Of a DNA stretch of 64,000 nucleotides, positions 14,879-16,912 are shown one piece after another. The DNA comes from Schmidtea polychroa (taxonomy: Eukaryota): NCBI GenBank assembly GCA_044892525.1, contig CM097885.1:29700001-29764000 (forward strand). Direction: 5' to 3'. A program made the translations under genes and the position numbers. The notes under the pieces were generated by a model. The model was given only the letters and a program-made list of their open reading frames with translations. It did not search any database and was not told where the DNA came from. The stretch's first letter is position 1, and the number at the start of each line of letters is the position of its first letter.

Positions 14879-15476
14879 CAAATCATCGCGTCAGATGGGG
14901 ATGAAGTTCAAAATCTCGCAGTTTACACCACTCGAATTCTTACGCTTCCCCGACCGTAAAGTAAGTCGTCTACAAACGATTTAATGCCAACACGTAAATC
15001 ATTAAAAATGATTCAAACATCCAAACTATTTTCATAGAATGGTTAGAGTTTAAATATATGGCTAAGCCACATCCACTAACTTGCGTTAATGAATAATAAT
15101 ATTGCCTCATTACGAGGATGGCACAAAATATCATGATTTTTAGGCGAGATTCAGACTTAGAGGCGTTCAGTCTTAATCTCTCGGATGGTAGCTTCGTGCC
15201 ACTGACCTTTTGATCAAGCACATTTACCAGTGATCCGAATCTGCGGTTCCTCTCGTACTGACCAGAATTACTATTATCATGACAAATTATATAGTAGGGT
15301 AAAACTAACATGTCTCACAACAGTCTAAACCCAGCTCACGTTCCCTATTAGTGAGTGAACAATCCAACGCTTTGCGAAATCTGCTTCGCAATGATAGGAA
15401 GAGCCGACAACGAAGGATCAAAAAGCGACGTCGCTATGAACGCTTGGCCACCACAAGCCAGTTATCCCTGTGGTAA
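14879..15476 (-). pseudogene. 28S rRNA: 28S (LSU) rRNA 3'-terminal fragment, PTC to 3' end
   Basis: Minus strand reads TTACCACAGGGATAACTGGCTTGTGG..TTTTTGATCCTTCG..GGGAACGTGAGCTGGGTTTAGAC; sarcin-ricin loop AGTACGAGAGGAAC at 15246-15259; CTGAACGCCTCTAAG; GTAGACGAC. Confidence 0.95.
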
Positions 15477-16912
15477 TAGCACAAATTCGAAAATCGGAGA
15501 AGATGAAAACATCACAACAATATCAGAAATACAAAAATTACATCAAAAAAACAGTCATTTGGAATCAGGAATGCAGATAATGATGAAAATGATGCAATCA
15601 TTGACTGAAGAAATAAATACTCTAAAAAAATGATGGACAAATCACAAAATGGGAATGAAACAGATAAAAATAATCAAAGAAACAGTTATGCCCAAATTGC
15701 CAAAAAATCAAATAGCAATTTAAATTTCCAAGAAAATGATAAAAATTTGAATTTTACAAATTGTAAAAAAAATTCAAATTCGGAAGAAAATAATAAAAAT
15801 TTAAATTTAAATTCAAATTTAAATACAGAAAATCAAGAGAATTTAAATATTTTAAAATCAAATATTAATGATTTTAAAATTTCGAAGAATACATCATTTA
15901 AAAATTTTAAAAATAAGAAAGATTTTATAAATAATAAAAATGATTTTAAGCCAATAATCAATCAACACTGAAATCCAGATCTGCGCTGAGAAAATTAATA
16001 CTACAACACTGAATTCTCAACCAGTAGAATCAAACAGAAAGAGAAGAAAGGCAATCTTAGCAAGTGATGAAGAGCAAAATCTTCCAAAAAAGACTAATAA
16101 TCATAAAGAGCAACCCATATTCGACCAACCTGAAAAATTGATTGGAGGAGGACCAAGTGATAATGAGAACTTCCAGATCCACGTTACTAATGAACTAACC
16201 TACAAATGTGCTCTGATTGGATGCCAATCCAAATCTGAATCATTAGCCGGGATTAAACAGCATGTATCAAGAGCCCATAAAATCAGGACAACATACACTA
16301 AATGCCATCAATGACCAAACAATATTCAACAACATGAAATTGAAGAACATGTCAAATATCATAAAGAGTTGACAAATAAATATAAAGATGCGAAAATGGA
16401 TGTCATAATTCCAACAAAAAATGACATTCCTTCAAACATCGCATGACTAGCACAGTCAGCTATCGAGGCTCAAATAAGATCAATCATAAAAGAGCCTAAG
16501 AACAAAGATAGCATAATCTGTTACTTAAATCCCCAGTGCGCTAATGACCTAATATCAAACAACAGGAATGGCCTCTTTAAAAAGTTAAAAATGGATGCCC
16601 TTGTTGGATGTGAGCTTACTATTTGGCTAATCCATTGGAATAAAAGTCATTGAACTGTATACCTTGCAGAAAGGAAAAACAGGACGTCAGTAATTATGGA
16701 CCCTGACAATCAAATGTCTCAAGAACTTAAGATTTCCATCAAAAAGAAAATAAATGATATACTGAGAATAACTTCCTCCGAGCAAGACAATGAAATGCAA
16801 TTAATGAACATCCCAATCTATCCAACTCAGACAAACAAATATGATTGTGGAGTGTTCGTTATTCAATATATAATGGACTTCCTAGAAAATCCGGAGAGGC
16901 CCATATTCAATA
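15477..16912 (+). mobile_element. Family C element 5' part, decayed: coiled coil, Asn-rich region, LIGGG, two C2H2 fingers, protease
   Basis: CALIGC...HVSRAH, CHQ*...HVKYH, WLIHWNKSH*, YDCGVF; several premature stops. Confidence 0.85.

What the first reader, a model, noticed from the sequence alone, without database searches (positions are those of the whole stretch)
15391..15633. Element frame has no 5' UTR and continues the antisense-28S frame, so it may borrow its start codon from the target
Seen: ATGs at 15391 and 15436 lie in antisense 28S (MIGRAD..AMNAWPPQASYPCG) and run in frame into element sequence. About 31 codons between the junction and the first element-encoded ATG (15571) are conserved gap-free between C and B (STNSKIGEDENITTISEIQKLHQKNSHLESG vs HTNSTIEEDENIATESEIQKIHEKTNKLESG). 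I see no leader or HDV-like ribozyme. Established: this antisense frame is open in many eukaryotes and underlies dubious ART2/RRT15-type annotations. Inference: expression may rely on antisense rDNA transcription and a target-supplied AUG, which would enforce site, orientation and frame specificity.
Basis: partly seen in the sequence, partly recalled or inferred. Interest (0 to 1): 0.72.

Follow-up and report, generated by a model that had tools for sequence, protein, structure and literature searches.

The report
Retrotransposon carries its own target tag
A flatworm jumping gene that lands backwards in ribosomal DNA looks as if it starts its protein from the landing site, but its relatives carry their own start codon followed by a built-in, in-frame copy of that site, which likely lines up each insertion and is likely rebuilt by copying the element's front end twice.

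Summary
In detail: both ATGs lie in antisense 28S and run in frame into a LIN9_SM-like NeSL element; 47 of 49 rDNA junctions of three families keep this register. The window copy is dead (stop after 65 codons in 30 of 30 array copies), and copy B is not a second junction. The borrowing idea is mostly not needed. Off-target copies of a sister family start 5-14 nt before an element-encoded ATG, followed by an internal 41-50 nt 28S-derived tag in the same frame (10 of 30 loci in an unbiased set). One rDNA copy keeps leader, own ATG and tag (L151); three outer junctions carry tag variants; one in-register junction has no target ATG. Likely mechanism: the tag pairs with the target and replaces the leader, so the register is a by-product; tandem 5' units, identical within a copy, restore the leader, possibly by a template jump. 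The tag starts at the 28S ATG, so that codon was captured once in evolution. No RNA data. The scan noted an internal target copy before in the LIN24/26 lineage of this genome.

The parts
14880..15476 (-). Decayed 3' fragment of a 28S rRNA gene (antisense on +); the target side of the junction
   Evidence: Rfam RF02543; 595 identities, 10 mismatches to rDNA type L031 against 551 to type L045
15391..15393 (+). First ATG of the open antisense 28S frame; belongs to the target; not part of any internal tag seen
   Evidence: tags start at or up to 8 nt before the second ATG
15436..15476 (+). Second ATG and 41 nt of antisense 28S up to the junction; the stretch that element copies also carry internally as a tag
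15477..15979 (+). Family C 5' unit (likely coiled coil plus Asn-rich part), cut off before the unit's own leader
   Evidence: alignment to intact copy L061; only sub-threshold coiled-coil Pfam hits
15478..15570 (+). 31 codons before the first Met of the unit, under purifying selection
   Evidence: dN/dS 0.27-0.47
15631..15633 (+). Premature TGA after a one-base loss in the A run just upstream; shared by all array copies fetched
   Evidence: 30 of 30
7667..7709 (+). Copy B: element leader (14 nt) and element ATG at 7681; one base out of frame with the tag in this decayed copy
   Evidence: matches the end of the 5' unit of intact double copy L078
7710..7750 (+). Copy B: internal 28S-derived tag with ATG and a compensating insertion/deletion pair
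   Evidence: same tag between the two units of 9 of 29 rDNA copies
7751..8253 (+). Copy B: 5' unit homologous to 15477-15979
30077..30319 (+). Array repeat of the same junction
53631..53873 (+). Array repeat of the same junction

Best explanation
This is a dead, amplified 5' junction of a LIN9_SM-like NeSL retrotransposon inserted antisense in 28S rDNA, and its frame runs on from the target ATG most likely because the element's RNA carries its own short leader, its own ATG and an in-frame copy (tag) of the 41-50 target bases, which likely pairs with the target and takes the leader's place at insertion. Steps. Shown: intact elements have the layout 28S-[unit]-rest or 28S-[unit]-tag-[unit]-rest, where each unit ends in a leader with an ATG; off-target copies start just before that ATG. 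Inferred: that point is the RNA 5' end (internal Pol II start). Inferred from hybrid junctions and from the R2 model: the cDNA copy of the tag anneals to the cut target and primes the second strand, which gives a precise, in-register junction but removes the first leader. Inferred: the lost leader is restored when the unit is doubled in cis, most simply by a jump of the reverse transcriptase from the RNA 5' end to the second copy of the leader (like retroviral strand transfer), or by unequal exchange. Inferred: the unit is translated when it lies behind a leader, from the element ATG or from the 28S-derived ATG in the tag; the outermost unit in rDNA need not be translated.
For: Intact 5.5 kb copies in real 28S, 2-bp target deletion, ORF1 then TGA then in-frame Ulp1-RT ORF2. 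Family D off-target loci: 10 of 30 in a set chosen on a downstream ORF1 region start 8-14 nt before the element ATG (binomial 4e-12, no cluster above 7 in 20,000 uniform simulations); 15 of 17 further picked loci start 5-14 nt before it (5 loci shared with the first set). 3 of the 10 lack tag and unit, as expected from the last unit's leader. 0 of 42 distinct off-target D-like loci carry 28S beyond the tag. L151: leader, own ATG and tag kept in real 28S, own ORF 558 aa, target frame 13 aa. Tag variants at outer junctions in C (L090), D (L122), E (L112) and in 3 of 4 target-type LIN9_SM rows of S6 Fig. L145: in register without target ATG. Units within a copy share haplotype: 6 of 6 complete C doubles, three haplotypes; D L149, L155, L157; triple L167 identical and starting at the leader. 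C-lineage older copies start 7-14 nt before the matching ATG (B, L244, L173, L233, L174, L178, L192). Precedents: R2 annealing of 28S-derived 5' sequence (PMC3774820, passages); 5' ends of copies used as TSS markers for mouse L1 monomers (PMC6454616, passages).
Against: No RNA-level evidence for the start site or for which ATG is used. No fresh family C copy with a retained leader was seen among 31 places; the sharp evidence is from family D, which is non-autonomous, and from C relatives 70-85% alike whose ends are BLAST boundaries; a within-copy search for a second leader found none in 8 of the 9 copies tested. 20 of 29 C rDNA copies are single-unit, most with an open ORF1 from the target ATG, which also fits readthrough expression. 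rDNA copies are amplified, so counts are not independent events; 7 of the 15 picked off-target flanks fall in two repeat classes. Haplotype sharing does not separate template jumping from unequal exchange or gene conversion. The uniform null for 5' ends is crude.
Confidence: 0.72

Rival explanations
1. One reading: rDNA copies are expressed from antisense rDNA transcripts and translated from the target's AUG at every cycle, which enforces site, orientation and frame.
For: 47 of 49 rDNA junctions in register; ORF1 of 714 aa from the target ATG in single-unit copies; first Met of the unit lies 31 codons in, and those codons are constrained; same register in LIN9_SM.
Against: Own leader and ATG in off-target copies and in L151; no target-type 28S on 0 of 42 off-target loci; register kept without an ATG at L145; hybrids show the tag builds the junction. 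The frame is the only one open across the tag, so it needs no special explanation.
Confidence: 0.13
2. Own leader and tag as in the best explanation, but the 5' units are multiplied only at DNA level (unequal exchange, slippage, gene conversion among rDNA copies), as proposed for mouse L1 monomers; no template jump.
For: rDNA arrays recombine often (established knowledge); target-plus-unit and tag-plus-unit are homologous, so misalignment is easy; unequal crossing-over is one of two models for L1 monomers (PMC6454616, passages).
Against: An off-target triple (L167) is identical to the active family, starts at the leader and has three identical tags, while rDNA copies fetched have at most two units; old off-target multi-unit copies share about 30 variants across units.
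Confidence: 0.3
3. R2-like: a read-through RNA is cut by a ribozyme or other processing at the clustered site, and translation starts without a cap or without AUG; the cluster is a processing site or a strong stop of the reverse transcriptase, not a promoter start.
For: R2 ends are made by ribozyme cleavage, also inside 28S sequence (PMC3774820, passages); a defined cDNA end does not by itself prove a promoter.
Against: No ribozyme family found; the same start is used whether or not tag and unit follow (L210, L212, L216); orientation excludes the normal rRNA co-transcript; an ATG follows within 14 nt in both lineages.
Confidence: 0.08

Closest known systems
LIN9_SM (NeSL clade, Schmidtea mediterranea; PMC4640811 text passages and S6 Fig parts 1-2 of 3; PMC5035012 passages)
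   Same: Same 28S site, antisense orientation, 0-2 bp target loss, same register at the 5' boundary, and diverged internal copies of the target starting near the ATG (visible in S6 Fig).
   Different: The unit and 3' end shown in S6 Fig look unlike families C, D and E by eye; full LIN9_SM sequence not available here. The passages read do not discuss tag, leader, frame or doubling.
R2 elements with 28S-derived 5' RNA ends (PMC3774820, passages)
   Same: Target-derived sequence at the RNA 5' end is proposed to anneal and give uniform junctions; failure gives duplicated 28S at the junction, like L151.
   Different: R2 is sense, co-transcribed, and gets the target sequence fresh by ribozyme cleavage in 28S; here the tag is element-encoded, internal, behind an element ATG, read in frame, and no ribozyme was found.
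Mouse L1 5' monomer arrays (PMC6454616, passages)
   Same: Tandem 5' units with an internal start; one unit lost per cycle and regained; copy 5' ends mark the start site.
   Different: L1 monomers are non-coding and carry no target copy; here units are in-frame coding repeats joined by a target tag.
R5 of dugesiid planarians (recalled; paper not held)
   Same: NeSL-related, two ORFs, 28S-specific, preference for one of two rDNA types (recalled).
   Different: Recalled as inserting near the R2 site, not at this site; not tested here.

Membership tests
NeSL clade non-LTR retrotransposon | Reverse transcriptase with an upstream Ulp1 cysteine protease domain | tested here: met
   RVT_1 E 2e-32 and Peptidase_C48 E 2e-10 in ORF2 of L078; also L064 and window 4787-7387
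NeSL clade non-LTR retrotransposon | C-terminal zinc knuckle and restriction-like endonuclease | tested here: inconclusive
   No Pfam hit; CCHC and PD..D-like motifs seen by eye in ORF2 (motif recalled)
NeSL clade non-LTR retrotransposon | Placement in the NeSL clade by RT phylogeny | not tested
   No reference RT set on hand
LIN9_SM lineage | Insertion at the LIN9_SM site of 28S | tested here: met
   5' and 3' junctions of L061, L062, L064, L065 match the site in S6 Fig
LIN9_SM lineage | Antisense orientation to the rRNA gene | tested here: met
   28S on minus strand, ORFs on plus; same in S6 Fig
LIN9_SM lineage | Sequence identity to the LIN9_SM consensus at family level | not testable with these tools
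   Repbase not held; the short ends in S6 Fig look unlike C, D, E by eye
R2 | HDV-like ribozyme at the 5' end | tested here: not met
   (Rfam only; an undescribed ribozyme is not excluded)
R2 | Sense insertion allowing co-transcription with 28S | tested here: not met
Monomer-type 5' promoter arrays (works-like) | Copies' 5' ends cluster at one point inside a tandem unit | tested here: met
   family D; C lineage, approximate
Monomer-type 5' promoter arrays (works-like) | Promoter activity of the unit | not testable with these tools
   needs CAGE, RACE or reporter

The most novel reading that the evidence does not exclude
A non-LTR retrotransposon lineage rebuilds its front end the way retroviruses rebuild LTRs: the leader is present at the RNA 5' end and again at the end of the first unit, the reverse transcriptase jumps between them to double the unit, and a translated copy of the rDNA target, which begins with an AUG captured from the antisense strand of 28S and now serves as the working start codon, is spent to make a precise junction.
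Probability: 0.4. Interest if true: 0.78.

Novelty: new variant of a known kind. Interest (0 to 1): 0.58.

Why it matters
It answers how a site-specific element inserted against rRNA transcription can be expressed and still make precise 5' junctions without a ribozyme: it encodes the homology arm itself, inside its reading frame, and regains the leader it loses. It gives a clean, testable case for how tandem 5' promoter units of non-LTR elements are renewed, a question left open for mouse L1 (PMC6454616, abstract and passages), and a natural design for precise 5' joining of interest to R2-type insertion tools. It also warns that an ORF running in from antisense rDNA is not evidence of a borrowed start codon.

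Tried and rejected
Expression: no RNA holder listed for the element's 5' 2 kb (4 holders, none on record as RNA, one study), and no read-level result was obtained, so expression stays open. Protein search with ORF1 residues 1-120: 86 candidates, none at E<=1. Rfam e-value scan of a double unit: no ribozyme. Splice-acceptor or spliced-leader origin of the leader ATG: considered because some leaders end in a pyrimidine run plus AG, rejected because family D and copy B lack the AG and the copies keep the pyrimidine run. B as an independent 28S junction: rejected. Large target-site duplication as the source of internal 28S pieces: rejected, 3' junctions resume 1-2 bases after the 5' junction. Search for more C-lineage off-target copies with L244 and with L069: swamped by array copies, nothing new. 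Within-copy search for a second leader in 9 old C-lineage copies: a long repeat in L224 only. Fetching 20 more stretches: 14 rDNA sites were empty at this position, 5 were further C copies, 1 was a decayed region; no new family. The first dN/dS run for the window copy was one base off and was redone (rows for winC discarded; one search used). A full census of all 832 listed target matches was not made: 100 were listed, 30 read at once and 14 more later. Literature searches for the tag, borrowed start or doubling mechanism found nothing on it; Repbase Reports and the R5 paper and PMC3308841 are not held and could bear on novelty.

Full report
Setting. The window is G000:C1:29.70-29.76 Mb. It is part of a tandem array of roughly 20 kb units made of scrambled pieces of Ulp1-RT non-LTR elements, AT-rich repeats and a 600-bp 28S fragment. 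The junction recurs three times in the window and in at least 40 near-identical places on several contigs (662 candidates, 40 scored). The 28S piece has 10 mismatches in 605 bases to one of two rDNA types in this genome, 4 of 9 scored changes at CpG. The frame from ATG 15436 stops after 65 codons in 30 of 30 array copies. So the window copy is one decayed junction, amplified as DNA.

The observation. Both ATGs are in antisense 28S and in frame with the element. The junction is 15476|15477. The 31 codons before Met 15571 are gap-free against B and against intact copies, with dN/dS 0.27 (p 0.017), 0.32 (p 0.038) and 0.47 (p 0.115) in the three pairs. They are, or were, coding. Only one of the three antisense frames is open across the 41 target bases before the junction.

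Living relatives. A pattern search gave 832 target matches; of the first 30 read, many were real rDNA units, some interrupted at exactly this site. Fetched stretches show intact 5.5 kb elements (L061, L072, L078; family C) with a 2-bp target deletion, ORF1, a TGA and an in-frame 1089-aa ORF2 with Ulp1 and RT domains, plus families D (2.2 kb, ORF1 only), E and F at the same site. S6 Fig of PMC4640811 (parts 1-2 of 3 read) shows LIN9_SM of Schmidtea mediterranea at the same site, orientation and register; the host is thus likely a dugesiid planarian. Register: 28 of 29 C, 15 of 16 D and 4 of 4 E rDNA junctions are in frame with the target ATG. A 5'-truncated C copy, present three times, joins in another frame. 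These counts include amplified copies and are not independent events.

The internal tag. 9 of 29 C, 10 of 16 D and 4 of 4 E rDNA copies have two tandem 5' units (660, 369 and 264 nt), joined in frame by a diverged copy of the 41-50 target bases. Copy B in the window is this internal tag, not a junction. In 11 tags aligned to 28S, the last 18 bases and the first 9 after the ATG are nearly invariant, the middle varies, several lineages show different compensating insertion/deletion pairs, and the ATG is kept in 9 of 11 at the same distance. 8 of the 12 LIN9_SM 5' rows in S6 Fig are such diverged tags (some rows repeat).

The real 5' end. Family D has many off-target copies. In 30 loci chosen on a downstream part of ORF1, 10 start 8-14 nt before an element-encoded ATG near the end of the unit; 7 go on into the tag, 3 go straight into the rest, as expected from the last unit. 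Under a uniform null this is P 4e-12, and no 14-nt cluster above 7 arose in 20,000 simulations (crude null, ends are alignment ends). Of 17 further D-like loci that I picked from the 61 matches, 15 start 5-14 nt before that ATG; 5 are the same loci as above, and 7 of the 15 flanks fall into two repeat classes, 8 are unrelated. None of the 42 distinct loci has 28S beyond the tag. L151 is an insertion in real 28S that kept leader, own ATG and tag: its own ORF is 558 aa, the target frame 13 aa. In the C lineage, B, L244, L173 and L233 begin 14, 13, 12 and 8 nt before the matching ATG, and L174, L178 and L192 begin at the same point as L067; these are older copies and approximate. No fresh C copy with a kept leader was among 31 places. 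Using copy ends as start-site markers has precedent in mouse L1 (PMC6454616, passages).

The tag builds the junction. Three outer junctions have target sequence upstream and tag variants next to the element: L090 (C; now one base out of frame with the target ATG), L122 (D), L112 (E); 3 of 4 target-type LIN9_SM rows do too. L145 is a D copy in a target mimic in the rDNA spacer: same register, a stop and no ATG upstream. This fits the annealing model proposed for R2 RNAs that carry 28S bases (PMC3774820, passages). Register is then a by-product of homology.

Regaining the leader. Annealing at the tag discards the first leader, so a one-unit rDNA copy would only make RNA lacking tag and unit. Doubles restore the full RNA (C: 726-aa ORF from the element ATG). 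Units within a copy share their variants: 6 of 6 complete C doubles across three haplotypes, D L149, the old copies L155 and L157, and the triple L167, which is identical to the active family and starts at the leader. Nine other D doubles had no variants and say nothing. So units are duplicated in cis. A jump of the reverse transcriptase from the RNA 5' end to the second leader explains singles, doubles and triples; unequal exchange is the rival and is not excluded. The idea to test doubling came from an earlier scan note on the LIN24/26 lineage (e1-7907765); the test here is my own.

What remains of the borrowing idea. The tag begins at the 28S ATG, which in the RNA would lie about 50 nt from the 5' end with a purine at -3, while the element's first ATG lies 8-14 nt from the end with C at -3 (read). 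The captured codon may be the working start (inference). Expression of single-unit copies from antisense rDNA RNA is possible but has no support here; no RNA-level data were obtained.

Novelty. The element type, site and orientation are published (PMC4640811, PMC5035012; passages), and the tags are visible in S6 Fig, but the passages read do not discuss them. Searches for the tag, a borrowed start or the doubling found nothing on it; Repbase Reports and the R5 paper are not held. Verdict: observation confirmed, interpretation partly supported, new variant of a known kind, interest 0.58.

Noticed in passing
L062:422-2627; L152-L169, L193-L222: Family D is a 2.2 kb element without RT that keeps an intact ORF1 of about 670 aa; it is common in rDNA and has dozens of dispersed copies, several in a GT-rich minisatellite that appears to be a secondary target.
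   Followed up: partly
L061 (oriented 2554-2556); window 4784-4786: ORF1 ends in TGA directly followed by in-frame ORF2 whose first Met is 88 codons in; likely stop-codon readthrough.
   Followed up: no
L145; also L246, L248-L250: The rDNA spacer holds a copy of this target site in the opposite orientation, and a family D copy is inserted there in the usual register.
   Followed up: partly
window 1-64000: About 20 kb tandem array of scrambled NeSL fragments plus a 28S piece, present on at least six contigs and at two places of C1.
   Followed up: partly
L063, L311, L315; L062, L312, L317: Other insertions in 28S about 630 and 545 nt beyond this site on the antisense strand; the first carries a 451-663 aa ORF and a 55-nt repeat of flanking 28S; the second is 0.67 to 7.6 kb.
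   Followed up: no
L033, L035, L051: Inserts of only 70-110 nt at the same target site in decayed 28S copies; likely extreme 5' truncations.
   Followed up: no
L065, L066: Family F copies preceded by only 91 nt of 28S and then non-28S sequence, near two chromosome ends; rearranged rDNA or a longer target-derived 5' end, not resolved.
   Followed up: partly
L168: A near-identical, nearly full-length family C copy outside rDNA, 5' end inside the unit, preceded by short target-like repeats and followed by 8 target-like bases.
   Followed up: partly
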